Shown: positions 1 through 32,946 of the stretch, piece by piece | How the letters are laid out: every line of letters begins with the position of its first letter | Numbering within the stretch: the stretch's first letter is position 1 | Origin: Lytechinus pictus | Taxonomy: Eukaryota | Direction: 5' to 3' | NCBI RefSeq assembly: GCF_037042905.1 | Contig: NC_087251.1 | Coordinates: 25,980,001 to 26,044,000, forward strand | Length of the DNA: 64,000 nucleotides | Notes under the pieces: model-generated | What the model was told of the DNA's origin: nothing | What the model saw: only the letters and a program-made list of their open reading frames with translations | The model's database searches: none | Position numbers and translations under genes: made by a program

Positions 1-885
1 ACAAACCGAGTCGCCCTTTTCCAAAACTCCCAACCCCCCTCCCCCCATAAAAATTTGTTGCGTCTATTATTGGGCTTATTTTCTTTTTACCCAAAATTAA
101 GGGGGGGGGCTGCGTGCGCAACCTCCCAACCCCCTTGGCGACGGTCATGCAGTTGACCCACAGAAATTTAGAAAATTTATATTTTTCTTGCAAAAATGCA
201 TAAAATTTACAAAAAATTGTGCAACAAATCCTTCAAGTTCTGCTCGATTGCTTCGCTCCCTCACTTTCGAATAGGGTCTATTTTTGAAAATTGCAAGAGT
301 TTTTAACAATGATGGGATGAGGATGTTTTAAACACTCTATCAAAAGTAGGTTCAATTTTGCACCTTTACCAATGTCACACATGGAACACATTTAATGATG
401 CAAATTTGCACCTTTCAGAAAAGAAATCACCTTAAAAGGTACAGCTTAATTGCACCTATTTTTCTGAAAGGTGCAAATTTGCATCATTAAATGTGTTCCA
501 TGTGTGACATTGGTAAAGGTGCAAAATTGAACCTACTTTTGATAGAGTGTTTAAAACATCCTCATCCCATCATTGTTAAAAACTCTTGCAATTTTCAAAA
601 ATAGACCCTATTCGAAAGTGAGGGAGCGAAGCAATCGAGCAGAACTTGAAGGATTTGTTGCACAATTTTTTGTAAATTTTATGCATTTTTGCAAGAAAAA
701 TATAAATTTTCTAAATTTCTGTGGGTCAACTGCATGACCGTCGCCAAGGGGGTTGGGAGGTTGCGCACGCAGCCCCCCCCCCCCCCTTAATTTTGGGTAA
801 AAAGAAAATAAGCCCAATAATAGACGCAACAAATTTTCTGGGGGGAGGGGGGTTGGGAGTTTTGGAAAAGGGCGACTCGGTTTGT
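1..885. repeat. Long near-perfect inverted repeat (arms ~422 bp, 37-bp spacer); may extend past the window start
   Basis: 1-422 is the reverse complement of 460-885 (acaaaccgagtcgcccttttcc ... ggaaaagggcgactcggtttgt). Differences are mostly homopolymer lengths. The core 333-549 has CACTCT...AGAGTG ends. Confidence 0.95.
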
Positions 886-1750
886 TGTTATTCATATCTA
901 TGGCCTTGTTTATATATATATATATAAATATGAATAGCCTATAGCAAAAAAAAAAAAAAAAAAAAAAAGGTTTTCTTCAACACAACGGGGGCAGGAGTAG
1001 AGGGTAGGGGGTTAACAGTAACAATTGAACTGTATGTTATAGGCGCTAGGCTTGAGTGTATAACTACAATGGATAAGACTCAACGTTACTCGTTAGTGTT
1101 ACCCCCTCCCTCTGCCCCCGCCGCGCTGCATTTGCAAAATGGGCAATGCCAATCATCAGCTAAAATTAATATTATTAGGGTCTAGAGATCTGAAAATATT
1201 TAAGAACTGAACACTAACTGTATTTTTTCTGCATTTGCATGGGTTTCGTGTGTAGCTCTGGCTCTAACACTAAGTTACTAGCACAGTTCTCAACAATGGA
1301 GTCAGGTTGGTCTAGGCTTATTAGTGACTAGGCCTAGTGACACTTATATATAGGGCCCTAGCCTAGCCGGTCTATACTAGAGCATAGGCCCCAGTGCAAC
1401 GCCCCAGTGACAATGTTGTGAGGGAGTAGGGCCTAGGCCAAGGCCTATAGTACCGTTTCACACCAACAAAATAGACAAACAAAGTTAGATCTAAAGCGTA
1501 GGTCTAGATCTAAGTAAATTCTAACTTCAACTTACCCCTTCCCGTTGAAAGTTGTTAATAACTGATTGAGGCATCCCTAAACTATTAAGTATACCCTCCA
1601 TTTTCCAGATTTATTTTTTCACGATCAATAGATTCATATATATGCACCTGCACTTCAATTCTCGGAAGCAAAAAGAGCGCGCTAGCTATACGTACATGAG
1701 GATTTGCTCAGTGCATGCTCACTGCGACACGTTTATGCGCACGTACTGTA

Positions 1751-3720
1751 AAAAGTGATGATCAAATGAAAAGCGACGACCAAATGAAAAGTGCCGATCA
1801 AATAAAAGCGACGATCAAATGAAAAGCGACCATCAAATATAAAGCGACCATGTATGGAATGCCGAAACCATCAACTTAAATTGTGATGATCAAATGAAAA
1901 GCGACGATCAAAAGAAAAGTGACCATCAAAGAAGAAGTGACGATCAAATAAAAAGTAACCATCAAATAAAAAGTGATCATCAAATTTAAAGTAGCCATCA
2001 AATAAAAAATAACCATCAAATAAAAAGCGACCATCAAATTAAAAGTGAGCATCAAATAAAAAGTTAGCATCAAATAAAAAGTGACCATCAAATAAAAAGT
2101 GACCGTCAAAGAAGTGATGATCAAATAAAAAGTGATCATCTAATAAAAAGTGATCATCAAATAAAAAATGAGCATCAAATATAAAGTAACCATCAAATAA
2201 AAAGTGACCATCAAATAAAAAGTGACCAACAAATAAAAAGTGACCATCAAATAAAAAGTGACCAACAAAAAAGTGACCATCAAATTAAAAGTGACCATCA
2301 AATAAAAAGTGACCATCAAATAAAAAGCGACCATCAAATAAAAAGTGAGCATCAAATGAAAAGTGAGCATCAAATAAAAAGTGACCATCAAATAAAAAGT
2401 GACTGTCAAAGAAGTGATGATCAGATAAAAAGTGATGATCAAATAAAAAGTGACCATCAAATAAAAAGTGACCATCAAATAAGTGATCATCAAATAAAAG
2501 GTGCCCATCAAATTAAAAGCGACCATCAAATAAAAAGTGACCATCAAATAAAAATCTATCATCAAATTAAAAGTGAGCATCAAATGAAAAATGAGCATAA
2601 AATGAAAAGTGAGCATCAAATAAAAAGTGACCATCAAATAAAAAGTGACCGTCAAAGAAGTGATGATCAGATAAAAAGTGATGATCAAATAAAAAGTGAC
2701 CATCAAATTAAAAGTGACCATCAAATAAAAAGTGAGCAACAAAAAAGCGACCATCAAATTAAAAGTGACCATCAAATAAAAACTGAGCATCAAATTAAAA
2801 ATGACCATCAAATAAAAAGTGACCATCAAATTTAAAGTGACCATCAAATAAAAAGTGACCATTAAATAAAAAGCGACCATCAAATTAAAAGTGACCATCA
2901 AATAAGAATTGATGATCAAATTAAAAGTGACCATCAAATTAAAAGTGACCATCAAATTAAAAGTGACCATCAAATAAGTGATCATCAAATAAAAGGTGCC
3001 CATCAAATTAAAAGCGACCATCAAATGAAAAGTGACCATCAAATGAAAAGTGACCATCAAATAAAAAGTGACCATCAAATAAAAAGTGACCATCAAATTA
3101 AGTGATCAAATAAAAAGTGACCATCAAACAAAAAGTGACCATCAAATGAAAAGCGATAAAAAAATTGAAAGTGACCATCATCAAATCTAAAGTGGCCATC
3201 ATCAGTTCAAAAGTGGCCACTATCGAATCAAAAGCAACCATCATCAAATCAGAAGCAGCCATCATCAAATCAAAAGTGGCCACTATCGAATCAAAAGCAG
3301 CCATCATCAAATCAAAAGCAGCCATCATCGAATCAAAAGCAGCCGCCATCAAGTCAAAAGTGGCCGTCATGAAGTCAAAAGTAACCGTCATCAAATAAAA
3401 AGCAAGTAAAAAGTGGCCGTCATCAAGTCAAAAGTAACCGTCATCAAATAAAAAGTGGCCGTCATCAAGTCAAAAGTAACCGTCATCAAATAAAAAGTGG
3501 CTGCCATCAACTTACAGGTGTCCTTTTGGCGCGCACATCAGGAACGCCGAAAGGACAACATTGATTTGATGTTAGAAACTGATTTGATGATGGCTGGTAC
3601 AGAGGGATATGATGCTTAAAATTGATATGATGATGGCCACTTTTGATTTACTGATGGCTGCACTTGATTTGATGATGGCTGGTACGGAGGTCCATCAAAT
3701 CAAAAGTGACAGTGATCAAA
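1751..3720. repeat. Minisatellite: 18-bp unit (aaaagtgaccatcaaata) grading into a 21-bp unit (aaaagcagccatcatcaaatc), with a few inverted units at ~3560-3690
   Basis: Tandem units are directly visible. The repetitive ORFs (MVTFYL, KSDHQI) are a by-product of the array. Confidence 0.95.
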
Positions 3721-4976
3721 TTTTAGCCTTTCCGCGTTCCATACCCCCGGAGTTTCGGCGAGGCAGACGCTCGCTATCCGTAGCGTTGCTAGCCTCTTGT
3801 CGAGGCCCTGGCGGCTGCTTCCCGAGCGAAGCGAGGGCTTTCCTAATTCGCGAAGCGAATTAGGCCTGGCGCGAGCCAGGGCCTCTTGACATCTGAACTG
3901 AATTATATATTCATGAGGAACGTCTTTCTAATGAATATACATGAGTTATTATTACCGGTCACCGAGTAAACCAATGAAATGTCAGAGCTGTTTCGTCTTG
4001 GGTTCGGAATACTATATACTGTAGTAGTCCACTATTCTGCAGGGGATTCATTTAATTGCGGGACACTAAAGGGGATATAACCAGCAAAATGCTACAACTA
4101 ACTAGTGGTACTAACTACTATATACTACTACTACTATTACTACTGGCCGTAACAGACCCATCACCGCCCCGAAACTTCCCGGGAGATACTGCTCAGCCGC
4201 TGGTCAGACTCGAGTCAACTCCCAGCAACTCCACCCCAGCTTCCCTCACTGCACTGCACAGCGGAGATCGATAATCGACGCCCCTGATCGACAGGTGGAA
4301 TCGCATGAAATATTACATTTTTTCCATATCCTGTGGGTAGATTTAGGTAGGCACTTATGATCCAAGTTTGAAAGGAGACTCGTAAAATGACGTCAGTCTC
4401 GCCGATGAATATTCATTAGATCGTGGTCGTGCGTGTTCAATACACACTGCGTGCAGGCATGCAGATAGTTATATGCGAGGAACTTTGGCTCCAGAGACAA
4501 GTTTTCAAATAACGTGTGTGTGTGTGCGTGTGTGTGTACCATCGGCTGGTAGTATGCCATGCTGTCTAAGACTTCAAACGCGTCGGAGAGAGTGCATGGC
4601 AATTCGGTAAAACGAAGTTTCCGATATAAAGAGATAATAAAATAACACTATGTACAGTACGCCCGGGGGTGCCACTTACATTGACGAGTGGATACCATGC
4701 GCGACCAAAAAAACACGTAAAAAGGATGTCTTTTTCAAGAGAGGGCACGTTACGTACGTAACGTGATAAGGGTGTCAAAAACACAAAAATATTGAAAAAA
4801 GGGTATCTATTTCCAGTACGTTGAGAGGCAAATGTCAGATCAGGGGAGGCAGGAGTACAATCAGGTTTTTTTTAAGGGAAGAATAGTGTAGAATAAAAGG
4901 TATTATATATACCCAAATGATCTAGGTGAGGGAAGTGAACAATGATGTTTTTTAAAAAAAGAATGAATATACCTTA

Positions 4977-6450
4977 ATGGTGAAGCCAATTTAAAAGGAG
5001 GTGAGGCAAGTTTTAATGGAGGTTTTTAAAAAGAATAAACTGTATTATGGTGAAGCCAATTTAAAAGGAGGTGAGGCAAGTTTCAATGGAGGTTTTTAAA
5101 AAGAATAAACTATAAATATGGTGAAGCCAATTTAAAAGGAGGTGAGGCAAGTTTCAATGGAGGTTTTTAAAAAGAATAAACTGTATTATGGTGAAGCCAA
5201 TTTAAAAGGAGGTGAGGCAAATTTCAATGGAGGTTTTTAAAAAGAATAAACTGTACTACAAATTTGAAAGGAGGTGAGGCAAGTTTCAATGGAGGTTTTT
5301 AAAAAGAATAAATTACTGTATATGGTGAAGCCAATTTAAAAGGAGGTGAGGCAAGTTTCAATGGAGGTTTTTAAAAAGAATAAACTGTATTATGGTGAAG
5401 CCAATTTAAAAGGAGGTGAGGCAAGTTTTAATGGAGGTTTTTAAAAAGAATAAACTATAAATATGGTGAAGCCAATTTAAAAGGAGGTGAGGCAAGTTTC
5501 AATGGAGGTTTTTAAAAAGAATAAACTGTATTATGGTGAAGCCAATTTAAAAGGAGGTGAGGCAAATTTCAATGGAGGTTTTTAAAAAGAATAAACTGTA
5601 CTACAAATTTGAAAGGAGGTGAGGCAAGTTTCAATGGAGGTTTTTAAAAAGAATAAATTACTGTATATGGTGAAGCCAATTTAAAAGGAGGTGAGGCAAG
5701 TTTCAATGGAGGTTTTTAAAAAGAATAAACTGTATTATGGTGAAGCCAATTTAAAAGGAGGTGAGGCAAGTTTTAATGGAGGTTTTTAAAAAGAATAAAC
5801 TGTATTATGGTGAAGCCAGTTTAAAAGGAGGTGAGGCAAGTTTCAATGGAGGTTTTTAAAAAAGAATAAACTGTATTACAAATTTAAAAGGAGGCGACGC
5901 AAGTTTCAATAGAGGTTTTTAAAAAGAATAAACTGTACTACAAATTATGGTGAAGCCAATTTAAAAGGAGGTGAGGCAAGTTTCAATGGAGGTTTTTAAA
6001 AAGAATAAACTGTATTATGGTGAAGCCAGTTTAAAAGGAGGTGAGGCAAGTTTCAATGGAAGTTTTTAAAAAAGAATAAACTGTATTATGGTGAAGCCAA
6101 TTTAAAAGGAGGTGAGGCAAGTTTCAATGGAGGTTTTTAAAAAAGAATAAACTGTATTACAAATTTAAAAGGAGGCGACGCAAGTTTCAATAGAGGTTTT
6201 TAAAAAGAATAAACTGTATTACAAATTATGGTGAAGCCAATTTAAAAGGAGGTGAGGCAATTAGTTAATGGAGGTTTTTAAAAAGAATAAACTGTATTAC
6301 AAGTTATGGTGAAGGCAATTTGAGAGGAGGTGAGGCATGTCTACAATGATTTTTTTAAAGAATGATAAGTGTAGAATATAATTCAAATGATGAAGCCATC
6401 TTGAGAGGTGCATGAGGCAAGTCTACAATGAGGTTTCTAAAAACAATGAA
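4977..6450 (+). repeat. Tandem array of a ~70-bp unit (62-79 bp variants), inner domain of the left arm
   Basis: Unit atggtgaagccaatttaaaaggaggtgaggcaagtttcaatggaggtttttaaaaagaataaactgtatt, repeated and decaying after ~6310. Confidence 0.95.
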
Positions 6451-9400
6451 TAGTGAAGAAAAAGATCGCAATTGCTTTTAATAATCCACAAAATTGTGTA
6501 GTTATTTATTTCATGCAAATTGCTATTAATTGATTATGCTCATTTGTGCATAATTAGTATACTATACCTATTCCTCTAACTCCCTAAATAAAGCTCCAAA
6601 TGTTCTAATTTTTGGTTTAGAAACTCTTTGTGGTGTTCTTCGATAATGTATTTCTTGTGTTTTTACCTTTGTATTGCATTGTTTTTTTTCAACGATGCTC
6701 GGACTCTCGTAACAGCATAAAATAAATCAGTTTAGTTCAACAAAACTAAAAACAATTAGGCATTCATGAATTTTGGTTGAAAACGCATATTCCATTGACG
6801 TGGTACACAAATATCACAATTTTGAGCCATTTTTGTCTGATATGCACTTACAAATTGTTTGGTAATTTTCAGAACCCAGTACCCGGGCTTCGCAAAACTG
6901 GTCTCAAAACATGCAAAAGACTTTTTTTTTAAATCGCAGAGCTCAGAGCCCCCCCCCCCCCCCTGCGTAAATAGGTTAAGTTTGCATTAATTTTGAACTT
7001 TTCCATTCCCAAATACGTAATATCCCCTCCCCAAAAATGCAATTGTCACTGAAATGGAATATACATAATATATTTTTTAATAAGCCATATTTGCAAAATA
7101 ATCATCATGTCATCCTTTGTCAACAAGAAATCTGTACATGTCCTCTGGAAGAAAATAATACCTCGGCCGCCTATTAAATTCTAAGTTTTTATTTTGTAAG
7201 TATTTTACTTAGCAATTTGGCTGGCTTATCAAAATGCTTAAACTTGTATGCAGATCAGATCTCAGAATTTACCTTATCCAAATTGAACTAAATACTAATA
7301 CCCATTGTGATGTTATAAATTTTGAGCCAAATAGTGCCAAATGTGTGAATGTATTTCTGTGCGTATCATTTTTGTATATGTAGACTTAAGTCTAGTAGAT
7401 GGCTGACTTACATTTAAGCAAAATATTTAGCCAAAAAAAAATGCAATTGAATACCAAAGATTGATAAGTATTTTACTTTTGCAAAATACTGAGTAAAATA
7501 TACTTGAAATTGTGGCTTTAAGAGTAGCATTGAATACCGGCCCTGTTCCTCATCATCATTATCATCCCACTACCACACCAGTTTCTGCAGCACAAACTTT
7601 AACTTTCATAGGTTGAGTCCATTTCAAAGCCAACACTCTCACTTTAACTTTCTTTTTTCTCTTATAACATGACGTCCACACACTGCCAATCACATCCTTA
7701 CAACACCAACTGTCAGGGGACAACAGAACTGCAGTTACCATAGCATTACCCCCAAAACACCACTCAATTTTGAATTGATCCAAATGAAATATGACTGTGT
7801 TGCACAAAAAAAAGCTATGTAGTCATAGTAGATTTTATTGACTTGTACATTCATAAGGCTATGCATATATTTTGAGTAATTGTTGTGTTGTCTTCAGTGA
7901 TAGTTGGTACCCACTGTGCTTATGGCCAACTTTGGTAAAGGCATACATTGAATAAACTTTTATGTACTGAAAATGATGACAGAATATATTCTTAAAAAAT
8001 AACATTACAAATGCATGACAGGTAATACAACATATTTCAACATGAACTATTTCACAATTTGCCAACATGACAATAAAAACTAACCTTAAAAAATAGTAGA
8101 AGCCGATGTTGGATGGAAAAGAATATCTTTGTCATACAGCTTGAAAGACATTATATATGTATGCACTTAATGGTATCTACATGATCATTAAGTTCTTCTA
8201 CACAGCTTGATATAATGTTGATTTATCCAGTTTGGCAAGTACTGTTGTGGTTGAGGCAAGGTTAATGGTTTTTCTGAATACTGAACCCCATTTTGTGTAA
8301 CGAAATGAAATCTACCAGAGTTACATGACAAAGTACAATAGAAGAAAATACCAACAGCTAGGCAAGCTTTTTTACATAAATATTTTTTTCATATACTCTT
8401 TGATATTTTTTCTCAAAACAAATGTGGCCAGCCACCCAAATATCAACAATAAGTTGCCAGGGAAGGTTCGTAGAAAATAACCAAAATAGTAATTCAGTTT
8501 TCCAAACGCATATTTAGAATATTGGTTTATCCGAAAAAAAAAGAAATTTCTTCATACTGTCAAAATGTGAGGTTGTAAAAGTTGAAGACAAAATACAAGA
8601 CTTTGATATCCGTGTTTTGCTCACTGCTAAGTAGTTGAACTACATATTACACATCGCATGCTTAAGTGAACCCCAAATCTTGTTCTCTTATTTGTTGAAG
8701 CTCTCACCAAACTTCTTCTGCATTCAATGAAGTACTAGCGAGGGATATTATTGATCAATATTAACAAGATAAATAATTTTACAGCTTAGGATGTGATCGC
8801 TCAAGATCAATGATAATCTTTAAATCAATTTATTGTTGGTATAGGGGTGGCTGGACACATATAGCAATATATTCTCGCTGTTAGAAAAAACAAGTGACAA
8901 TTACATTAGTTAACAGCAAGTATTATAAAACCAATTCATGATCATGGAAAGCAACTGCAGCTTGAGTAAATAAAAATATACGCTATAATACAGTTTAAAA
9001 TACGTTTATTTTCAGTACTGGCAGGCCTAGGATCATGATAAAAGATAATAAAAGTTAGCAAGTACTGTGTGATAACGGCATGCATTCTAATCAAGTTTTT
9101 GCACAAACATCTACAAAGACTGTTGAGTGGGCAGCAAAAATGGTCGCAAATTATGTTCAAAATGATATGAGACAGTCTAAAAATACTGAATAAAACACAA
9201 AGGTCATATAATCTTGCATCAAATAGTTATCAAAGAAATTTATCAGCCTCAATGCCGATTAATGCTAACAAACAATGTATCATTATTTACACAGGTGATT
9301 CTCCATGATTTAACATTAGCAAGTATCGTAGGAATAAGAAACCCTAAGTTGAATGGATACAATTAGCCGTTGATGTTTTATGACTAACTAGATGGATTCT

Positions 9401-10209
9401 CAACTACATGCAGTCAAAATTTATGGCACTGCCTTTGCTAGACCAAGAATATATTATATATTTACATTTTTAACATGACCTTGCTGACAATAGAAATTTG
9501 ACTAAAAATCTTCACTCACACAAGAGGTAATTTTCAAATTGATCCTTTCAAAGAATTCAGGAGATTAAAAAGTTATCAGTCAGAGTGCAGATTCATCCTA
9601 ATCCTCTCGTGGCTTGTGTTTTGGTCTTCATCAAGCTCATTACATATGCAAAACATCTGTAGTCACAAATATCACTTGGAAGAAAGAATACGCTTTTTGA
9701 GGACATACTGTTATACCATGCACTTTGACCTCATGGGCTAACATTTCACCAGTCATATGCACAGATAAGCCATATTGGAAGTAGAACCCTCAAATGATTC
9801 TATAAGACTTGGGAATAGGAGATATTTTGGGTATACATGTATATTGATGTCTGTGACCTATGAACTTGAACTACTACTATTTACTGAGATTATCTGCCTT
9901 AAATGTGCATTCAGGAACCAAGCTTGAATTTCACCCTATTGACAACTGTACAGTTAATATGAAAATGAACTATTTGAATTTATATAACGACTGCATATCT
10001 GTAATCTTGCAATATAATCAGATCCTTAGCTAAACTTTGAATATGAAGTTGATCCCATCCATGATTCTTTACTGAGTTACGGCAAGAACAGGATATATTA
10101 TGTATTTGATGAGTCATTGACTTTTAACCCCAAAATCTGATCAGATCGTCTCTACTCAATTATACACACTTAGACCAAGTCTAAAGTTGATTAGACCAAC
10201 TATTCTTAA

Positions 10210-10977
10210 CCCTAAACAGGCCGGGGGGGGGGGGGTTGAATCAACTCCCCCCTCAACATTTTCTGCGATCATTCCGCCGCGCAAATTTTTTTGACTGCAC
10301 CACTTGCAAAAAAAAGTCTTGCGCATCTTTTGAGACCAAATTTACGACCCCATGTACACGGTTCTGAAATTACGCAACATTTTGTAAGTGCATATCTGAC
10401 CAAAAATTGTTCCTAAACGTGATTTTATATACAAAGTCAATGCGAATTGAGTTTTCTCATCTTAGTCATAAAGATATGATTATTTTTACTTTAAACAGCT
10501 GAAATCAATTGATTTTAGCATAATTATGCTTCAAAAAGGTTGTGCAATAAATCTGGTGAAAAAAAACAAAGAAAAACAAAAGGTTGAAAAACAAAGAAAT
10601 TCATAAGAAATTTATAAAACAATGAAATACATAAGAAATTGATTTCCAAAACAATTTTTTTTCAATTGAGATTGTTAAGAATGCTACAAAGAATAAATTT
10701 ACAAAAAATTTGCATTCTAGGAGCTTTATTTAGTGAATTAGAACAAAAAGTATGATTTATGCATAAATTAGCATAATTAACTCATATCAAATAAAATCTC
10801 ATTATTTTTGAAAATTTTATCATACAGGCTTGTAGATCACATCGCACACTACCAGCGTGCAAATTTTTGCGGCACTCGCGCCATCGGCGACCGAGGTCTT
10901 GGGGGGGGGGGGGTGGAATCAACCCCCCCCCCCCCCCCTGGCCACTGAACAGCCCTAAAAGCCCGGCCTAGTTAAGG
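10210..10977. mobile_element. piggyBac-like MITE (CC..GG ends, TTAA TSD)
   Basis: TTAA at 10206-10209 and 10978-10981. Imperfect TIR ccctaaacaggccggg / cccggcctagttaagg. Confidence 0.75.
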
Positions 10978-11333
10978 TTAAGTTGTCGGGAGATAAAATT
11001 AGCCACACAAGCTGGAATAAGCCTCCTGCAACCATTTCAAGAAGGCAGAACATAATCTTGTATATAGTTGTTAAACAATCCATATTCACATTTTGTATGG
11101 TGAAGATTAGCTTTTTCTTGAAAGAGCTGAACTTTTAAGTAAAGGTTGCAAAACTATGCTTCTACCCCTTTTGTCATTGGTGTGATGTAGTTTAATGTTC
11201 AACTTGTAATGAACTTATTGAAACAAGGTATAACTACACAATCACAGAGTAGACCTAATACAAATCAAATATTTTTTTCACAAGAGATACTGTTATGGAG
11301 TAATTTAGTACTGTTTTGCAACAATTACATTAA

Positions 11334-11927
11334 AGGACAAGTCCACCCCAACAAAAAGTTGATTTGAATAAAAAGAGAAAAAATCAACAAGCATAACACT
11401 GAAATTTTCATCAAAATCGGATGTAAAATAAGAAAGTTATGACATTTTAAAGTTTTGCTTAATTAAAAAAAAACAGTTATATGCACATCCTGGTCTGTAT
11501 GCACCTGAGGAGACTGATGACGTCATCCTCTCACTATTTCTTTTGTATTTTATTATAGGAAATATGAAATATTCTAATTTTCTCCTCATTTTTTAAGTGA
11601 TACAACGATTAATTCCTCCCTGAACATGTGGAATTAGCTTTGTTTAATACTATATGGTTCAGTCAAGTTGGTCCTTATTGTCAAATTTATAGAAAATGAA
11701 ATATTGTATAATTCAAACAGTAAAAAACAAACGAAATAGTGAGTGATTGACATCATCGACTGACTCACCTTGTTGTGTATATCACTGTTTTGTCAAAAAT
11801 AAGCGAAACTTTAAAATGTCAAAACTTTCTTATTCTACGTTTGATTTTGATGAAATTTTCAGCATTATGCAAGTTTGAATTTTCTCTATTTATTCAAGTC
11901 AGCATTTTCCTGGGGTGGACTTGACCT
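11334..11927. mobile_element. MITE with AGG..CCT ends and TTAA TSD (Kolobok-like)
   Basis: TIR aggacaagtccacccca / tggggtggacttgacct (16/17). TTAA at 11330-11333 and 11928-11931. Long imperfect internal inverted symmetry. Confidence 0.85.
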
Positions 11928-12409
11928 TTAAGCTGCCAACTGCCTTAAAGAAATACCTGTTTTACACAAATTGCATAGTCATTGAATATTTACTAGAAAA
12001 AGTCACAAACAGTGTCCCAGGGTATAAATTAATTTCATAAGAAGAAAATAAAGAATGCTTGTAAAAATACCAATCTTGCTATCACATAAAAAATAAATTG
12101 TTTATAATATGAAAAAGAAACAGCACAGCATTGATCTTCACCTGGATTTGCATAATGTGAATGGTGACGCATCATCAAAGGAGATAATGCTTTATTTATT
12201 AGATCTAGCCTTTTGACAAGGCAGCATGACTTCTTCAAGTAGTGGCTAAAATAAGGTTAGTTTGACGAAGAAGAGAAATGGCAAAACCCGCGGACACATG
12301 CGAGATCAAGCAACTTCAGTTGCGAAGCCTTATAAATTTTTGCTTTTACTGCTTGCTATGAATTATCCATGAGCATGCCGATGCGCCGATTCGCACTTTT
12401 GATGCCCGA

Positions 12410-13968
12410 TGTAGTACAGTTTATTCTATTTATAAACCTCCATTGAAACTTGCCTCACCTCCTTTTAAATTTGTAGTACAGTTTATTTTTTTTTTAAACC
12501 TCCATTGAAACTTGCCTCACCTCCTTTTAAATTGGCTTCACCATAATACAGTTTATTCTTTTCAAAAACCTCCATTGAGGCTTGCCTCACCTCCTTTTAA
12601 ATTTGTAGTACAGTTTATTCTTTTAAAAAACCTCCATTGAAACTTGCCTCACCTCCTTTCAAATTTGTAGTACAGTTTATTCTTTTAAAAAACCTCAATT
12701 GAAACTTGCCTCACCTCCTTTTAAATTGGCTTCACCATAATACAGTTTATTTTTTTAAACCTCGATTGAAACTTGCCTCACCTCCTTTTGAATTGGCTTC
12801 ACCATAATTTGTAGTACAGTTTATTCTTTTTTAAAAACCTCCATTGAAACTTGCCTCACCTCCTTTTAAATCGGCTTCACCATTGTAGTACAGTTTATTC
12901 TTTTTTTAAAACCTCCATTGAAACTTGCCTCACCTCCTTTTGAATTGGCTTCACCATAATTTATAGTACAGTTCATTCTTTTTTAAAAACCTCCATTGAA
13001 ACTTGCCTCGCCTCCTTTTAAATTTGTAGTACAGTTTATTCTTTTAAAAAACCTCAATTGAAACTTGCCTCACCTCCTTTTAAATTGGCTTCACCATAAT
13101 ACAGTTTATTTTTTTAAACCTCCATTGAAACTTGCCTCACCTCCTTTTGAATTGGCTTCACCATAGGTTGTAGTACAGTTTATTCTTTTTTAAAAACCTC
13201 CATTGAAACTTGCCTCACCTTCTTTTAAATCGGCTTCACCATAATTTGTAGTACAGTTTATTCTTTTTTTAAAACCTCCATTGAAACTTGCCTCACCTCC
13301 TTTTGAATTGGCTTCACCATAATTTATAGTACAGTTTATTCTTTTTTAAAAACCTCCATTGAAACTTGCCTCGCCTCCTTTTAAATTTGTAGTACAGTTT
13401 ATTCTTTTTAAAAACCTCAATTGAAACTTGCCTCACCTCCTTTTAAATTGGCTTCACCATAATTTGTAGTACAGTTTATTCTTTTTAAAAACCTCCATTG
13501 AAACTTGCCTCACCTCCTTTTAAATTGGCTTCACCATAATACAGTTTATTCTTTTTAAAAACCTCCATTGAAACTTGCCTCACCTCCTTTTAAATTGGCT
13601 TCACCATAATTGTAGTACAGTTTATTCTTTTTAAAAACCTCCATTGACACTTGCGTCGCCTCCTTTTAAATTTGTAGTACAGTTTATTCTTTTTTAAAAA
13701 CTTCCATTGAAACTTGCCTCACCTCCTTTTGAATTGGCTTCACCATAATTTTGTAGTACAGTTTATTCTTTTAAAAAACCTCCATTGAAACTTGCCTCAC
13801 CTCCTTTTAAACTGGCTTCACCATAATACAGTTTATTCTTTTTAAAAACCTCCATTAAAACTTGCCTCACCTCCTTTTAAACTGGCTTCACCATAATACA
13901 GTTTATTCTTTTTTTAAACCTCCATTGAAACTTGTCTCACCTCCTTTTAAATTGGCTTCACCATAATA
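12410..13968 (-). repeat. Tandem array of the same ~70-bp unit, inverted; inner domain of the right arm
   Basis: Repeated cctccattgaaacttgcctcacctccttttaaattggcttcaccat, the reverse complement of the left array unit. Confidence 0.95.
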
Positions 13969-16023
13969 TTCAGGTATATAAGGTATATTCATTCTTTTTT
14001 TTAAAAACATCATTGTTCACTTCCCTCACCTAGATCATTTGGCTATATATAATACCTTTTATTCTACACTATTCTTCCCTTTAAAAAAACCTGATTGTAC
14101 TCCTGCCTCCCCTGATCTGACATTTGCCTCTCAACGTACTGGAAATAGATACCCTTTTTTCAATATTTTTGTGTTTTTGACACCCTTATCACGTTATACG
14201 TAACGTGCCCTCTCTTGAAAAAGACATCCTTTTTACGTGTTTTTTTGGTCGCGCATGGTATCCACTCGTCAATATAAGTGGCCCCCCCGGGCGTACTGTA
14301 CATAGTGTTATTTTATTATCTCTTTATATCGGAAACTTCGTTTTACCGAATTGCCATGCACTCTCTCCGACGCGTTTGAAGTCTTAGACAGCATGGCATA
14401 CTACCAGCCGATGGTACACACACGCACACACACACACACGTTATTTGACAACTTGTCTCTGGAGCCAAAGTTCCTCGCATATAACTATCTGCATGCCTGC
14501 ATGCACGCAGTGTGTATTGAACACGCACGACCACGATCTAATGAATATTCATCGGCGAGACTGACGTCATTTTACGAGTCTCCTTTCAAACTTGGATCAT
14601 AAGTGCCTACCGTAGATTTACAAAGACATCTCGTCCTTTCAGTGCAGAGTTAATTTCATCGACTTGCAAATCCTCAAATCGGTCAGTATTCAGCATTTTA
14701 GAGGCATATCAGTGCTCTTTGATATTTCGTCGTCACTCTTCGCCAAGAATCTAAGGGTCGCCATTCAAAATTAGCTCATGAATATTTAATATGACGTAAT
14801 AGCAGCTCGCGCTCTCATTGGATGATTTTCACCGACCAGTTTTTGGTCAGTGAATTGGTAAAAACAATAAAAAACAAAAGAAAGTCGGTGAAATTCGGTA
14901 CAGATGTCCAGAGGCCCTGTCTCGCGGCGCTCTGCTTCGCTCTCTCTCCCGTGCATTGCATGTTTGCTCGGAAAGCAGCCGACAGGGCCTCGACAAGAGG
15001 CTATAGCGTTGCTTGCTTGATCGATCGGTCAATCAAATTTAGCGTTGACCCACAAAAAATCATACATATGGGACTGTAATGTCATGCATTGCCGATCTTA
15101 TGCGACAAATTTATTATCAACTAAAGTATATAATACTTCACAGTGACATCTTTTAAATTTTTTATTTAATATTAAAAAAGTAATAAAAAATATTTTTTAT
15201 AGAAATATATCCGCAAAATATTTAAACTTATTTACAAGTCACTTATTAATAAAACAGTATAAATAGTTTAACGTAGCGCTAGCGCGCGCTATCCAAAAAA
15301 CGTTATAAGTACAAAAGTGATAATATGTGTACGTACGTACGTACGTGTGAGATCTTGTGATGATCCATTATTTTTCTCCTTACAAAAATATACAGGTCCC
15401 ATCTCGCCGGCGCTCTCAGTCGAAATCTACTAAGTAGAGGGAGATCTATACCGCACTGGTCATTGCCTCTGCTCTGGTCAGCTCTGCAGAATTAAAAGCT
15501 AAATTTGCTGATGAAAGTCGAGCCCGAGAACAGTCATCGATTCAAGATAAAGACAGACAAGTCACAAAGTCTGACAAAACCATTCTTCGTAGTTCGTGTT
15601 CGTCCCAGTTTCACAGCTCAGACTCTGAGCCTCAGTCAGAGTCAGACTCACTCAGTCACACACAGCTGCATGCTGCATCAACAGACTTATCTCACTCAGC
15701 TCAGTCGTCAGTCTGTGGTTTATACCGTCCGGTATTATGTAAGAAAACTCACAATTTTAACTAACTCAACATGTTGAACTTTGATCATGTTGATTAGGAT
15801 CTATTAGTATGTGTAGGATGGGGGGGTCGGCATCAATGGTCGGGTGTTCGGACACTTTATTTTTGAAGCCTTCTGTTTTGTCTTTGGATCACACTAAAAA
15901 TATTATTAATTCAATAGGGGGCCTAGTTACAAATACAAGTAATGAAGTATAACCTCGTTCATGGGATGAGTGGTTGAAATCATCTTCTATTTTGTTCTAT
16001 ATAAGTTTTTATAATATTTTGTA

Positions 16024-17514
16024 TGGTTGGAACTACCGAACCCCTTACCAAGTACCAAACTAGGATTTTCTAAGCATCGTATCTGTGAAAATATTTATCA
16101 TTTTTACCTATTTTTCGTCTCATTTGTGCAGAAAATTGAGCAGATCAGATTCCCATGTTTCGATCGGTGACTCCAATTAAATTCGCGTATATCAGCGAAC
16201 AACGAATACAACCATTTAACATTTGCACCCTTCTTTTGAAACCGACCACCCGTGATATAGTCACGTATTGTATTACCGGACACTATTGTGATTCCGGACG
16301 CGCATATAAATGCGTTCGAAAACAATTTCGTACCGTAAGACTTCCGCAATTCATTTTCACAGATCAATACATAGAACAAGATTGCAAAAACAAGGCGAAA
16401 AAATCAAATTTCTTCCTTATTTATCTCTAAAATGACAGAAAATGCTTAAAATATCATATAACATAGTTTTGCATTAACAATTGAATGAATTGATATATTT
16501 TCTAACGGAAATATGGGCCTGATTTGCCGAATTTCAATCTCGTCGGCTCCTTCGATCGAATGATGAGGGGAGGTGTATTGTGGGTGATCGTCGACGGCTA
16601 GTTCTCAAGGTACCGTGCGCGAGGTTTACAGTGAGTAGAGCCGTCGACGATCGGCTGCGCATCGATAGAACTTGATGAGCGTCACGATACGAACGAGCAC
16701 TGGAAAGTGCCATGAAACATGCAGCTAACCAAAAAATAAAAAATAAATTAAGTTATCAAACACGAATTTATTACCAACATCTGCTCAAATTCGATATAAA
16801 AAAAGCAAACAAAAAGTTAGAATTTATTCATGATATGATATAAGAAGAAAAAAATCACAGAAATTTATTCTTACATCATTATAATCAAGGATATCTTTAC
16901 CCGTCCGGCGCGTCCGGAATCATGATGTAATTTGTCGCGCACGAAAATAATTGTTTTTCGTGGAGGGGTATGTGGCAAGTGCGATGCAAAGAAAATGGTT
17001 GGTAAATATAAAATAATTTTATCATATTAATAATTTTCATAATATTTGGAATAGCAAGTGCGAATTTTTCTTGATTGTATTTCCTCTAGTTGTCATTTTT
17101 AAAGCACTGAAATAAAGGTGTCCGGCAATAGGATACACTGCCATACACTAAGTTTACGGCCGATTCTTGTCGTGGTGGCGAAATGTTTTAACTCTTCCAA
17201 ATCAGTTCTATGATTTTAACATGCTAAATGATCGTCTCACTACCACTTCGAGCTCCGGCACATGATTCGACGGATATTTGTTCTAAAGCCGTTTCCTATG
17301 GGATTTCTTGGTATGAACAACTGTTTTTCGGTGGGGTTCGGGTCTAGTCAAAACAATTTTGATAAATTCTACTAAATTTTTACCTTTTTCCCCTTCTTTT
17401 TGTCTCGTATAATCGCCTACTCTCCTGCGCGTATCGTTTGTAATACGCAATAATTTTAATGCGCGCAAGGTGGTCAGTTTCAAAAGAGGTGGTCGATATG
17501 TGGTGGTCTCACTA
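16024..17514. mobile_element. Non-autonomous relative of the pogo-like transposon at 34111-38356
   Basis: Flanked by TA on both sides. Left end tggttggaactacc vs tggttggacctacc in the autonomous copy. Right 45 bp (17470-17514) match 38312-38356 at 40/45. No transposase ORF. Confidence 0.8.
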
Positions 17515-18259
17515 TACTAAAAATTGATGAAACTTCTTACATTTAAATTTTTCCAAATGACTTACTAAAATTGATACCCTAATTCGGACACACAACTGGA
17601 TATACAGTAGCCTTGGCCTTGGTTTGACTAACTAACGACTTACATGTATTAACAACAATTAGATCAAATCCAGAAATTCAGAATAAGCTTTCTAATAGTA
17701 GCCTAACAATATTAGTAGATTCTAGTACATACAGTCCGAAATGAAAGGCGAAACAGATGGGGGGGGGTGGTCTTTTTATTTCGCAACCAGTCAATTTGAC
17801 TATTTTCACCAAATTGATGTACCGGTACATGTAGATCTATTGGTAAATAGTCTTTCTTTAGTTGGGTATAACGTTTGACAGGACTTAGAATCTAACATTA
17901 ATCATAGACAGCTTCTCTTTTAGTAGTAGGCTCCTAATCAGCATCTATGCTGATTATAGGATGATATCTGTTTTGTTTTGCAGAATCCTTCCACTCTAGT
18001 GATTCAGAGTAGATTTACTTGCCACAGCAATTAGCATTTTCAAGAGAGATGTTGTTTGTAGATGCCACTTCCAAACCTGTGCATGTGCACCCTCCTAAGT
18101 GCTGATATCTCATAGTGCCATACCCAGGTTGGAAGAAACAACTTGGCCTAGTTACTTGATATAGGCCAAGTTGTTCCTTCCAACCTGGGTATGGCACTTG
18201 TGCACATGCTCAGGTTTAGAAGATTATTTTTGCAGAGTTTTCTCCCACAGTCCAGTTCA

Positions 18260-19015
18260 TGGTTAAACTTCCAGTAAGGGGAGTGCCACTAGGAAGAGCA
18301 TTGACAAGTGTCCTTCAGTCCTTCTTTCCATTCTATCCAATGATAGACATTGGTATTGCCCAAGTGTAAATAGAATCTCCAGATCTATTTGTCTGCTGAT
18401 AGGAATTAAGTCCAGGAGTAAGTACACAGCTTCATTTGAGCATCTTTTGGGCAAGCCTAGGACCAGCTTAAAAGAGATTTTGTGCATGATCTAGACGATT
18501 TAACGTATAACCGGTGAGGCGATGAACTTGCACTCCATATAGCATTCTATAAATACAAAATGTTTTCCACAGATGGGAGCAGAATGAGATATATATGGAA
18601 GAAGACTTTGAGAGCCCTGTTTGGTTCCTGTCAGTGGGAAGAAGGCGCTGTAGCCTTTAGATATTATGTCATTGGTGGGGTCAACTGTCAATGCGAGAAA
18701 TACAATTCATGATGATTCCAAGGTGGGGATGGTTTGAGCATTCCTTGATTTGAGTGTCCCCCAACTTCCACTGTGTAATCTCAGCTTCTTCCTTCTCTAC
18801 AATAGCACTTTTGTCTGGATCGATCTTGTAATGCCAGGCGCACAAGTATTCATAGGTGAGATTAAGCATAGCCTGAAGGTGCTGACCAATGCCACATCAT
18901 CGGTTAAAACTTTATATGGCTCCCATATAAAGTCCTCTTAATGAGCATCCAAGGCTAGCTTCTCGCAACTTCTTGATGAGACCGTCGATTAAAACTTTGT
19001 AGAGAGTTGTTGAAC
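18260..19015 (-). mobile_element. Decayed non-LTR retrotransposon reverse-transcriptase remnant (RTEX/RTE-like)
   Basis: Frameshifted minus-strand peptides STTLYKVLIDGLIKKLREASLGC, TDDVALVS, WKLGDTQIKECSNHPHLGI and LVLGLPKRCSNEAVYLLL resemble RT and post-RT segments. Confidence 0.7.
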
Positions 19016-19829
19016 TACTAGAATAATATTGAATGGGGAACTTATGCATCCATTCAGCAGAACACTACTGAGGTAGTTCTAATTAAACCTGATATGTAAA
19101 CATATCACAAAGATTGTTGGAAGATGGAAAGTAAAAAAATTAGACTTTGAACTGAGGGGAGGGAGGATTGGGAATTAAGGTCTTTTAATTTATTTTAAGC
19201 ACTCTTAATCACAGTAATTGACGTCTATGTCCCACCGGAGAAGGGATAAAAAACTGTTCTCATAAACAAGAATAATCTCAATTTATCAAGACATGATTTG
19301 TTTCCGTTTATTGGGATATCCTTGTTTTCTGGGACAATCCCAATTCTCAGACCAGCACCTTGACTGACTTAAAGCTGGTAGTGGTAGGTAGCTCAATGAG
19401 AGGTCACTCCATGAAAATACTGAAATCCCATAGCCAATTAGATGTTAGATATAGATAGAACCTTCAGTAGGAGAGTAATTAATGGCTGGAATAGGAGCTA
19501 TCTGAAAACTTGATACAATGTCAACAGACAAATTCAAAGATATAGAGATTGATACAGTTGTACAGTACTTCCATTCCTTAACTCCTCATGCAGGCTCATG
19601 AAGTAGTAATTTTCAGCAGCAATAATCCCACAAGAAGCTGAGTCAGAGTTACAGGCTCAGTCACACCTTCATGTTCATCCTGTATGAGATATTGGAGAGT
19701 TTTAGGAGCAGTGAACGAGAATGACGTAGCAGTCTTCTGATCGTTTGTGTCAACGTCGTCGTCTGCCCTTGTTCACTACAGATGCGAATACATAAGATTT
19801 CACTCGACTTAATTGTACGTGTACGTACG

Positions 19830-20290
19830 TCCACGTGAAACAGCGCGATAACCAGCAGGTCATGACACGCTGCCCGACCCGGAAGATCTGGCGTACTATC
19901 GCCTGGCGACCCGGTCGGGTGATGCAAAGGTGCAACTTGTGCACACGTGCACGTGCCCTTTCACTTGCTTTGATTATTTTTTACGCGAGTTAGGATATAT
20001 ATTTTGGAGGTCAGAAAGCGATTCCAAATATGATAAACATAGTGCATCGTACAACTTACATTAATTTTGTGAAAAGTCACTGAAAACTGTGTTTTAAAAG
20101 GGAAAGGTTGATCTTCATGCTGGGCTTGAACGGTTAAAATGACGTCACTCACGTACACGTCCACTATGATTTAGGAGAACCGCAAAATGGATGTGGCGAG
20201 GTTCTCGATTCTGATAGTGGACGTGTGTGAGGACCTGAGGCATATGGCAGGCCAAAAAATGACGTCATCTCGTACAAGTCCTCTATGTCG
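19830..20290 (+). promoter_or_regulatory. CpG-rich putative promoter of the kelch gene, with two CRE (TGACGTCA) sites and E-boxes
   Basis: TGACGTCA at 20140 and 20260. CACGTG at ~19832 and ~19945-19955. Lies just upstream of the first coding exon. Confidence 0.5.
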
Positions 20291-20516
20291 ACGTACCTTT
20301 CTAAAAGTGCTCGATGATGATGATGATCTAATTATTATTATCACATTATTTTGTTGATATCATTATACATGTACTTAATTATTAATTTATTATCATTATT
20401 GTTATTAGTAGTAATACTATGATTGCTATTTTTACTATAGTATAAATGTATGTATTATTATTTTCTGCCAGATTTTCTTGATGCTCAAGTGATTGTAAGT
20501 CAGTGCAGTGCTCTTG

Positions 20517-22145
20517 ATGATGGAGTCTGAAAGCGAAAAGATGGAGTGTTTTGCAGTGTATTCACCTACGAGCCTGCCAGTTCCTGTGAATCTAAGGTGA
20601 TCTACTGTACTTTAGTTGTGGAATATCTCAAAGCTAACTTCCAACAAATAGAATTTTACTTTAAATTAATATAAAAAAATATTAATAATACCCCATGGCC
20701 TATTTTGTTGTTTCCATGAATTCCAAGCTTGAATGAAAATGACTGTTGAAACTGGGTAAAATGATAAATCTAATTTCACCTGAGTCCATTCGAAGTAATC
20801 ATAAAAGTTTTTAGTCTGACCAACTTATTTTTCTTCCAGTTCCATCCTTATGTTTACCTAAGCTGAATAAATTGTGGTTATGGTGAATCATTAGAACAAC
20901 ACATCACCTCAGTACATCTGTTGATAAACTGGTCCCAAATATGCAATTCATGAATTTCTTTTTACTATTGGCAACACCTGTATATACACGAGTACATGTA
21001 CCTGTTGACTCGCAACTACCTGTATATTGTAAGCTTTGGGAAAAGACACAAGTAATAATTTTGTGCAATTTCGTCCTGAAGAAAGACATGATAAGTTGTA
21101 ACTCTTTTGATTCCTTTAGAGTCTTAAAAAGACTTCTATTTTCCTCATAACTCACTATGTGCTTTGAGCAATTTATACAGTAGATGTCATATTATTTTTG
21201 TTGTTTGTGAAAAATACATTTAGGCTTATGGTTGATTTTAACCATTGACCCATTTTCAATGCAGCTCGGCACTTCTCCTCCCTTCTCCATTTCCTGAAAT
21301 GGTGGCAGTGTTTGTTATCTCTTCAGAATCAACGCATGAAGATCTATCCCTAAAGGCAACAATTGTAAATCATGCCAATACGGCAGACAGTTTTGATCTG
21401 GGATCAATCACACAGGATAGCAGGTAAATATAAAGGAAGGGTAGAGTCCCTGAGTTTTTTCCCTTTTTTTCTTTCTTTTGAGAGTGCTTATATAGCTGTT
21501 GCCACACTGAAAGAGAATGTTTCTTATTTTTTGTACTTTCAGCAATGGTTTCCCCAATCTGCCCATTTAAAAAAAAGAAGCTTTTTGTTGTTTGTGTTTT
21601 TTTTAAAAAACTTTTAATGACTAAGATATTAGAGAGTCAAAAGGGGCCTAAGCTTTCGATTCTAGCAAAATGACAAACAAAGTGGAACAACCAAAATATA
21701 GACCACAGACATGCAGCAGCAACACTAGAAACAAGGAGACAAAAAGGGCATTAGAGAGTAGTGATGACCAATCAGGTTAGAGAAGGGGATAAAAGCAAAG
21801 GAGTAGGCAGACACAAAGGGAAGTTAGTGTAAGTAAGGCCAGTGAAAGACCTAAAGCTAAGAGCAAAAAGGATCTGGAACAAAATAGTGAAAGGGGTATG
21901 AGGAAGAGATGAATAACAAGAGAATTAGTGAGAGGTGGGTCAAACAGGTTACAAAGAAAGGCATAATAAACTGGTGCACAAGAGTGGGGAAAAAAGGGAA
22001 GGAATGGGGAACAACTGATAAAGTGCAAAAGACATAAGTATATATGATAAAGCATTATACAAACTAAAAGATGAATGTAAGTGTAAATATATATCTATAA
22101 GTATATATGTATATAAATATATCCAAAAAGGAATGTATATGAAAA

Positions 22146-22183
<38 letters not shown>

Positions 22184-28100: not shown

Positions 28101-28905
28101 AATAAGGTTCTTATTCATGGAGGATACAATGGAAATGAAGCCTTATCTGATTCATTCATCTTTCACCTTGGTGAGTACATACCCACCCTTATCCTTATTA
28201 ATATAAATTCAGTTTGCATGAATAAAGTCCGAGCTGCTAATCCTTTGTATAGAGAGTCTTTGTGTTATTTTGATCAAAATGCACATAAGGAAATAATTGG
28301 TATCAACATTTTCCTTAGGAATTGTCATTGACACTTTTAGAAAAGGTTTATGTCATAAATGACATGACATTCATTCATTATAATCTGTAAAAGAATAAAA
28401 ATGAAACAGTTATGAATTTGAGCTAGGACCGGAATTTGCCTTGGATTTGTATATGAAATCACATTGTTTTTAAAGCAATTTGGGGTCTTAATTGCACTTA
28501 AATAATGTTGCATAATTCAAGTATTGGGTACCCAGGCATCACCTAAAATTTCAAGTAATTTTAGGGATTCTAGTAATCCTTATAGTAATTTTAATTGACT
28601 TTACCTCAGGATTCAATTGTCATTTGAAGGTAAATTTTTAATGAAATATCCCTTTTCTTTTTCCATTTCAAGATACCTATACTTGGAGCGAGGTGAAGCT
28701 GCACTCCCGTGTGCCAGTAGGGATCAGAGCAGGCCATGCCATCACATGTTACCATGGTAACAAGAGTGCATCAAAAGACGAAAAGGAAAACCATATGCCC
28801 TTGGTGGAGTCTCTTGCTATCTTTGGTGGAGGTGATAATGAGGATAATTTCTTTGGTGATCTGGTCCCATTCAGCTGGACATATTCAAATTTCTTAGATT
28901 TCTAA
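20517..28905 (+). CDS. Kelch-repeat (beta-propeller) protein, 584 aa, 12 coding exons; resembles the uncharacterised zebrafish zgc:163014-type family (recalled, not searched)
   Basis: Exons 20517-20596, 21265-21423, 22370-22658, 23106-23349, 24008-24127, 25105-25292, 25882-26020, 26447-26504, 26952-27043, 27471-27525, 28073-28170, 28673-28905. All GT-AG with consistent phases, 1755 nt. Six kelch blades: RWGH..LIGG, RMGH..VFGG, RAYH..VFGG, RSGH..IFGG, RSWH..IHGG, RAGH..IFGG. Confidence 0.93.
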
Positions 28906-32621: not shown

Positions 32622-32857
32622 ATACAAGGGGATACATCCAAGTTTGTCTTGCACATCAATGAATTATCAAGTTGAATATATTCCATAATCTTATTAGACA
32701 GATGAATTAATGGTGAATGAATGTTGAATATATGCCATAATCTCAGACAGATGAATGAATGATGATGAATTTATTTATTCATTCATCTGTCTAATGAGAT
32801 TCTGGAATATATTCAACTTGATGATAATGCAAGACAAACTTGGATGTTGTATCCCCT

Positions 32858-32861
<4 letters not shown>
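32622..32861. mobile_element. Foldback MITE-like inverted repeat abutting a (TA)n tract
   Basis: tacaaggggatacatccaagtttgtcttgca...ttagacagatgaat is inverted at attcatctgtctaa...tgcaagacaaacttggatgttgtatccccttgta. Confidence 0.7.

Positions 32862-32946
<85 letters not shown>
32860..32946. repeat. (TA)n microsatellite
   Basis: Uninterrupted TA run of ~87 bp. Confidence 0.97.

What the first reader, a model, noticed from the sequence alone, without database searches (positions are those of the whole stretch)
4337..14620. 10.3 kb non-coding foldback transposon with ~2 kb modular arms (unique outer domain, satellite inner domain)
Seen: perfect 9-bp TSD. Each arm has a ~630-bp near-identical non-repetitive outer domain plus a 1.4-1.6 kb array of ~70-bp units. 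The ~6 kb core has no transposase ORF. Established: 9-bp TSDs and long TIRs typify Mutator/Foldback elements, while the classic Drosophila FB and sea-urchin TU elements carry short repeats in their arms, in TU in the outer domain. Inference: a possibly undescribed large foldback family with the reverse arm layout, able to spread a satellite and cargo.
Basis: partly seen in the sequence, partly recalled or inferred. Interest (0 to 1): 0.72.

Follow-up and report, generated by a model that had tools for sequence, protein, structure and literature searches.

The report
Sea-urchin foldback transposon with satellite arms
This is a real 10.3-kb gene-less jumping element in a sea urchin genome, with mirror-image arms that carry a tandem repeat resembling the element's own end; it is a clean new example of a layout already described in fruit flies and beetles, not a new kind of element.

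Summary
Observation confirmed. The element spans 4346-14611, with an exact 9-bp TSD, ~630-bp tips 98.7% alike, ~70-bp arrays of 19 and 22 units and a 6-kb core without detectable coding sequence. The genome is Lytechinus pictus by a neighbouring gene. The element splits a 939-bp repeat that has its own 9-bp TSD, so all 10.27 kb moved as one unit. Correction: the outer domain is not unique. It holds a 150-bp piece of a very high-copy repeat at the same site in both arms; public contigs hold the arm without it, so one arm was copied from the other. The array unit resembles TIR positions 13-45, probably a multiplied transposase site. The 'reverse layout' is already described for Tetris, Galileo and Rehavkus. 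Mobiliser: probably a Mutator-type (MULE) transposase, not shown. No genome was held, so other copies with TSDs were not tested. The scan earlier noted several other foldbacks in this genome, none matching by sequence.

The parts
4337..4345 (.). Left target-site duplication, GTAGATTTA
4346..4976 (+). Left arm, outer non-tandem domain (631 bp), starts GGTAGG
4358..4390 (+). TIR positions 13-45, similar to the array unit (24 of 33); candidate transposase-binding motif; mirror copy at 14567-14599
   Evidence: function inferred
4662..4813 (+). 152-bp terminal fragment of a very high-copy dispersed repeat inserted in the left tip, flanked by a 7-bp direct repeat
4977..6450 (+). Left array: 19 units of 62-78 bp, with a 345-bp five-unit duplication (2 mismatches), then two degenerate units
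6451..12409 (.). Core: AT-rich, no coding sequence detected, several nested older MITE-type elements
6508..6979 (-). Truncated relative (about 78%) of the 10206-10981 element; runs out next to the left arm
8422..8860 (.). Nested element with 35-bp inverted ends, 86% complementary
10206..10981 (.). Nested TTAA-bounded element (piggyBac-like ends; label recalled)
11330..11931 (.). Nested TTAA-bounded element with 165-bp inverted arms, 82% alike (Kolobok-like; label recalled)
12410..13978 (-). Right array: 22 units, 359-bp higher-order repeat, abrupt inner end
14142..14291 (-). The same repeat fragment (150 bp) at the same site in the right tip, flanked by CGTACTG at 14135-14141 and 14292-14298
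13979..14611 (-). Right arm, outer non-tandem domain (633 bp)
14612..14620 (.). Right target-site duplication, GTAGATTTA
3790..4336 (.). Left half of the host repeat (939 bp when empty; inverted ends; own 9-bp TSD TAGCGTTGC at 3781-3789)
14621..15003 (.). Right half of the host repeat (TSD at 15004-15012); multi-copy in public contigs

Best explanation
A non-autonomous foldback-type cut-and-paste DNA transposon of Lytechinus pictus, most likely moved in trans by a Mutator-superfamily (MULE; Rehavkus/Phantom-type) transposase. Shown: the whole 10,266 bp inserted as one unit into an older 939-bp repeat and duplicated 9 bp; the arm is multi-copy; the array unit resembles the element's own end; a secondary 150-bp insertion sits in both arms. 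Inferred: a transposase encoded elsewhere recognises the terminus, and the roughly 37 same-orientation copies of the end-like motif in each array are extra binding sites that help pair the ends of a long element; one arm has been copied from the other at least once (conversion or rebuilding from two copies of one arm); the arrays then changed unit number and order by unequal exchange faster than the tips mutated; the core is old passenger DNA with no role in movement.
For: Exact 9-bp TSD at the TIR boundary (chance 8e-6). Flanks are two halves of one element with inverted ends and its own 9-bp TSD; contig 19 of run X9 matches 14612-14898 and leaves the stretch exactly at the TIR boundary with 289 letters to spare, as an empty paralogue would. 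In run X12 two contigs over the inner tip have depth 761 and 679, against 18-34 for the eight X12 pieces listed: collapsed repeat. X9 contig 17 joins 14134 to 14292 with no substitution listed in about 420 bp, leaving one copy of the 7-bp repeat; X12 also has a contig lacking the insert. Unit versus TIR 13-45: 24 of 33, 0 of 1000 shuffles of the terminal 60 bp, 23 of 1000 of the terminal 300 bp; motif counts 37 and 39 in the arms, 0 in the core, 1 in the other 53.7 kb. Only 2 unit types are shared among 12 left and 19 right types. Literature: MULE TSDs 8-11 bp, Rehavkus 9 bp (PMC6446971); subterminal repeats strengthen Muta1 binding and excision (PMC5499845); Galileo repeats hold extra binding sites (PMC3688188).
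Against: No transposase or remnant in the element, so the superfamily rests on one TSD and on structure. No second full copy with a TSD was seen: no genome was held, and loose ends at 14611 were not among the rows shown. The first array motif lies about 640 bp from the end, much further than in Muta1 (145-bp TIR). The motif pattern was written after seeing both sequences, and the 300-bp control is only 23 of 1000. Contig depth is not a copy number, and X9 and X12 carry organism labels other than that of the runs identical to the window's first exon. The letters by which X9 contig 19 continues were not shown.
Confidence: 0.68

Rival explanations
1. The same foldback element, but moved by a non-MULE transposase: Merlin (GG termini, 8-9-bp TSD) or a P/Galileo-type enzyme.
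For: Termini start GG and the TSD is 9 bp, both fitting Merlin; several Merlin families carry internal tandem repeats (PMC8101967). The foldback shape has arisen in both MULE and P lineages (PMC3169594; PMC4079207).
Against: Merlin TIRs are given as 24-462 bp, against about 2.1 kb here. Galileo makes 7-bp TSDs (PMC3573991). Most foldback elements are placed in the Mutator superfamily.
Confidence: 0.2
2. On the origin of the core: the element is a composite. Two copies of one arm came to flank about 6 kb of host DNA in inverted orientation and then jumped together, carrying that DNA as cargo. The alternative is a decayed native interior whose arms are kept alike by conversion.
For: The derived 150-bp insertion is in both arms. 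The core holds at least four nested elements with arms only 82-86% alike, against 98.7% for the tips. An old element is cut off within about 60 bp of the left arm and lacks the last 184 bp of its relative; the right array ends inside a canonical unit. No transposase remnant.
Against: The left array fades through degenerate units, as a native arm-interior boundary would. Nested-element arms may be imperfect by nature, so their mismatch is not a clock. The truncated element is only about 78% like its relative. No source locus for the core was found: none in the window, none among earlier findings; no captured exon was identified.
Confidence: 0.45
3. Two unrelated solo-arm insertions around resident DNA with a chance 9-bp match, or an assembly artefact (fold-back chimera).
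For: Single copy examined; no long read or contig across the whole element was seen (laid 13975-18100 only). The 345-bp duplication in the left array has only 2 mismatches, so unit counts could be assembly-dependent.
Against: The core is not local DNA: removing 4346-14620 restores one 939-bp element with inverted ends and a TSD. The arms differ by 8 substitutions, 2 indels and different array order, which a chimera would not give. Chance TSD 8e-6.
Confidence: 0.02

Closest known systems
Tetris, foldback transposon of Drosophila virilis (PMC4079207; passages and section 19 read)
   Same: Non-repetitive outermost domain (up to 866 bp), then tandem repeats, non-coding middle, 8-10-bp TSDs, non-autonomous, assigned to Mutator on TSD size; outer domain and repeat share a 37-bp stretch at about 80% (here 33 bp at 73%).
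   Different: Unit about 220 bp there, 62-78 bp here; Tetris has an inner non-repetitive TIR domain, this element has none; TIRs up to 1.7 kb against 2.1-2.2 kb; sequence similarity was not tested.
Rehavkus elements (MULE outgroup; PMC6446971 passages; Tribolium preprint 10.1101/2024.12.02.626372 passages)
   Same: [quoted passage not shown]
   Different: Reported from arthropods and annelids; defined by a transposase with a PHD finger, absent here.
Galileo, P-superfamily foldback of Drosophila (PMC3688188, PMC3573991; passages)
   Same: TIR of 1.2 kb with internal tandem repeats holding secondary transposase sites hundreds of bases from the end; TIR extension and chimeric copies by recombination and conversion.
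   Different: 7-bp TSD and THAP-domain transposase.
Muta1 of Aedes aegypti (PMC5499845; passages) and Tm1 of root-knot nematodes (PMC3169594; passages)
   Same: MULE foldbacks with 8-9-bp TSDs and repeat-bearing TIRs; repeats shown to aid binding and excision in Muta1.
   Different: Short TIRs (145 bp in Muta1) with 12-14-bp repeats starting close to the end; transposase known.
TU elements of Strongylocentrotus purpuratus (seen only as a citation in PMC4079207; features recalled)
   Same: Sea-urchin foldback with modular long TIRs and a variable middle.
   Different: As recalled, short repeats lie in the outer domain and the unique domain is inner; not tested by sequence.

Membership tests
Foldback-type element (structural class) | Long modular TIRs with internal tandem repeats | tested here: met
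Foldback-type element (structural class) | TSD at the TIR ends, showing insertion as one unit | tested here: met
Foldback-type element (structural class) | Dispersed family with several copies | tested here: inconclusive
   Arm is a collapsed repeat in X12 and is assembled in X9; no second full copy seen; no genome held
Mutator/MULE superfamily | TSD of 8-11 bp | tested here: met
   9 bp, one copy only; range from PMC6446971
Mutator/MULE superfamily | TIRs long for a DNA transposon | tested here: met
   about 2.1-2.2 kb
Mutator/MULE superfamily | MULE DDE transposase in an autonomous partner with the same ends | not testable with these tools
   none in this copy; no genome held
Rehavkus | Subterminal tandem repeats and 9-bp TSD | tested here: met
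   features
Rehavkus | Transposase with PHD finger | not testable with these tools
   copy is non-coding; partner unknown
Merlin | 5'-GG termini and 8-9-bp TSD | tested here: met
   features from PMC8101967
Merlin | TIR 24-462 bp | tested here: not met
   tips alone are 631-633 bp
Merlin | DDE_Tnp_IS1595 transposase | not testable with these tools
   none in this copy
Galileo/P | 7-bp TSD (Galileo) | tested here: not met
   9 bp; 7 bp from PMC3573991
TU elements | Short tandem repeats in the outer TIR domain (recalled) | tested here: not met
   outer 630 bp has no tandem array
Catalogued Repbase/Dfam family | Sequence match to a library consensus | not testable with these tools
   no such library is offered

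The most novel reading that the evidence does not exclude
The arm itself is the mobile module. Pairs of identical arms, each a landing strip of about 37 end-like motifs, can bracket arbitrary multi-kilobase host DNA and carry it off as a composite transposon, so different copies of the family would share arms but hold unrelated 5-10-kb cores. This would be an animal counterpart of bacterial composite transposons and plant Pack-MULEs, with the shared 150-bp insertion marking the lineage of arms.
Probability: 0.25. Interest if true: 0.6.

Novelty: new member of a known kind. Interest (0 to 1): 0.33.

Why it matters
It is a tidy, young example of how foldback transposons carry tandem repeats and old DNA to new places, and it holds a rare internal marker: a secondary insertion present in both arms that records arm-to-arm copying. 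It sits about 780 bp upstream of a transcribed exon, so if it is polymorphic it could vary expression in a model sea urchin, and pairs of such arms are substrates for inversions. The architecture and the proposed binding-site role are already described in insects, so a specialist would find it useful, not surprising.

Tried and rejected
No whole genome is held, so genome-wide pairing of ends was impossible. Terminal 18-mer in metagenome contigs: 13 loci, 13 of 13 with matches of only 18-22 bp, i.e. chance. Terminal 17-mer in viral contigs: 0. Rfam on 1-20000: 0. Pfam on core frames: three sub-threshold hits (E 0.006-0.095) among 62, rejected. Codon-usage scan: best core segment 10.5 bits against 11.6-17.5 in four background stretches, but 5 of 11 true exons scored under 5, so it cannot exclude short exons. 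Splice scan gave minus-strand candidates at 7643/7702-7794 and 12142-12245; the 86-aa frame 7565-7822 found nothing at E<=10; one read-through frame of 7000-10200 (1 of 6 frames) found 0 at E<=0.001 among 1.84 billion proteins. A suspected relative at 32622-32862 shares only 11 bp with the terminus, rejected. The terminal 115 nt has no unusual fold (z 0.36). No RNA holder was listed by the run search; the lay showed depth 0 at 13975-14112 in X1 and X23 (about 6 in 100 of X23 read), weak evidence only. Earlier findings by sequence of tip, array and core, and by place: nothing relevant. Marquez and Pritham 2010 (Phantom) is not held and was seen only as cited. Paper searches listed no paper on a Lytechinus foldback family; one search listed only 10 of 5,585. 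Supplements were not opened; those of PMC6446971 may list echinoderm MULEs, and those of the bioRxiv preprint are closed.

Full report
What is there. The inverted repeat begins at 4346 and ends at 14611, and is bounded by GTAGATTTA at 4337-4345 and 14612-14620; among lengths 5 to 15 only 9 gives a direct match, with a chance of about 8e-6. The outer domains (4346-4976; 13979-14611) align with 621 matches, 8 substitutions and 2 indels. Inside them lie arrays of 62-78-bp units: 19 regular units plus two degenerate ones on the left, 22 on the right.

Where it is. A 62-aa exon at 25107-25292 is 100% identical to a protein named 'rab9 effector protein with kelch motifs-like [Lytechinus pictus]' and 87% to its Strongylocentrotus purpuratus relative; twelve coding segments map to 20517-28902. 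A contig of run X1 is identical to 15395-15738 and stops at a GTAAG donor, and RNA reads of X23 cover that stretch in one orientation. I infer this is the gene's untranslated first exon, about 780 bp from the element; the splice link was not seen.

It moved as one unit. The flanks are inverted relatives of each other at 3790-3904 and 14892-15003 (74%). They form the ends of a 939-bp element with its own exact 9-bp TSD, TAGCGTTGC. Removing the foldback and one TSD restores it. In public contigs its right half is a dispersed repeat, and contig 19 of X9 matches 14612-14898 (11 other letters) and leaves the stretch exactly at the TIR boundary with 289 letters left. That fits an empty paralogue; the continuing letters were not shown. 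The core has no long match elsewhere in the window. So the 10,266 bp came from elsewhere.

The arm is a repeat family. In run X12, which has no depth over the first exon and so is probably a related species, two contigs over the inner tip have depths of 761 and 679, while the eight X12 pieces listed have 18-34. Run X9 holds the tip and neighbouring repeats but not the first exon; two other runs of its sample hold next to none of the words, so its nature is unresolved. Depth is not a copy number, and no second full copy with a TSD was seen.

The outer domain is not unique. Positions 14142-14291 and 4662-4813 draw very high depth in X1, X12 and X23 and raised depth in X9, with heterogeneous loose ends at 14288-14292 (agreement 0.34-0.47) and a consistent continuation at 14142 (0.76-0.80). 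This is one end of an abundant dispersed repeat. It is flanked by a 7-bp direct repeat. X9 contig 17 runs from 14560 to 14292 and continues directly at 14134, with no substitution listed, which leaves a single copy of the 7-mer: the pre-insertion state. X12 has a diverged contig that also lacks it (joint 14131-14315, depth 78). Insertion is the simpler direction, and an insertion happens in one arm. Its presence in both arms means one arm was copied from the other somewhere in this lineage, by conversion or by rebuilding from two copies of one arm. Related rearrangements are described for Galileo (PMC3573991, passages).

The array echoes the terminus. The unit aligns to TIR positions 13-45 at 24 of 33; 0 of 1000 dinucleotide shuffles of the terminal 60 bp and 23 of 1000 of the terminal 300 bp score as well. 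A pattern around CAAGTTT-AA-GGAG occurs 37 times in the left arm and 39 in the right, once at position 18 of each and otherwise in the arrays, 0 times in the core and once in the other 53.7 kb. The pattern was written after the fact, so the counts describe and do not test. In Muta1, more subterminal repeats give stronger binding and more excision (PMC5499845, passages); in Galileo, repeats 560-720 bp from the end hold functional secondary sites (PMC3688188, passages). I infer the same role. The arrays change faster than the tips: only 2 unit types are shared among 12 left and 19 right types, the left has a 345-bp duplication with 2 mismatches, the right a 359-bp period.

The core is passenger DNA. 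No Pfam family reaches its cut-off in 62 open frames or in six read-through frames; the same scan found a pogo-type transposase and a Kelch exon elsewhere in the window. One read-through frame of six found nothing among 1.84 billion proteins, and the best exon candidate found no homologue. Short exons are not excluded. At least four older MITE-type elements are nested in it, two bounded by TTAA, with arms 82-86% alike where measured. One is cut off beside the left arm and the right array ends inside a unit. This leans towards captured host DNA, but a decayed native interior is not excluded.

Comparison. Works like: a non-autonomous foldback. The supposedly reversed layout is that of Tetris: outer non-repetitive domain up to 866 bp, tandem repeats, non-coding middle, 8-10-bp TSDs, and a 37-bp stretch shared between outer domain and repeat (PMC4079207, passages and section 19). 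Rehavkus elements have long TIRs with subterminal repeats and seed satellites (preprint passages) and 9-bp TSDs (PMC6446971, passages). Membership: the structural class is met; MULE is met on TSD and TIR length but its transposase is untestable; Merlin fits GG ends and TSD but not TIR length (PMC8101967, passages); Galileo fails on TSD. TU and FB features are recalled, not read. Earlier notes of this scan list several other foldbacks in the same genome with units of 57, 181 and 227 bp; they are unchecked, and none matched by sequence.

Verdict. Real, young-looking, non-autonomous foldback transposon, probably MULE-driven (0.68 for the whole account; about 0.95 that it is a transposon that moved as a unit). 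New member of a known kind; prior cataloguing in Repbase/Dfam could not be checked. Interest 0.33. The most novel open reading, arms that bracket and carry unrelated host DNA, has probability about 0.25.

Noticed in passing
window 3781-15012: The host repeat (939 bp empty, TAGCC termini) also has an exact 9-bp TSD, so two 9-bp-TSD elements are nested.
   Followed up: partly
window 14527-14664: Summed contig depth 142,487 in run X12 against about 4,000 in the next bin, not seen in X1, X9 or X23; X9's tip contig stops at 14560. Possibly a very abundant short element sharing the terminus in that species; unexplained.
   Followed up: no
window 1-885: Near-perfect palindrome (96% over 892 columns) that runs to the window's edge; a foldback MITE or an assembly feature.
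   Followed up: no
window 1749-3730: 1.4-kb array of an 18-bp unit grading into 21-bp units, followed by an inverted degenerate copy at about 3560-3680.
   Followed up: partly
window 35649-37552 (-): pogo-type transposase: HTH_psq (E 4.5e-11) and DDE_1 (E 5e-22) in two frames, with a C-terminal Cys/His-rich tail.
   Followed up: partly
window 15395-28902 (+): RABEPK-like Kelch gene; probable untranslated first exon 15395-15738, coding exons 20517-28902.
   Followed up: partly
window 15769-17840: Dense, nested multi-copy repeats in the probable first intron, with joints such as 16254-17143 and 16004-17515 in several runs.
   Followed up: no
window 32622-32862: 240-bp hairpin element with internal 49-bp repeats, abutting a (TA)43 run.
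   Followed up: partly
window 58457-60922 and 63331-64000: Tandem arrays of 155-168-bp and 163-192-bp units, and an inverted pair 59579-59986 / 60542-60922 (77%).
   Followed up: no
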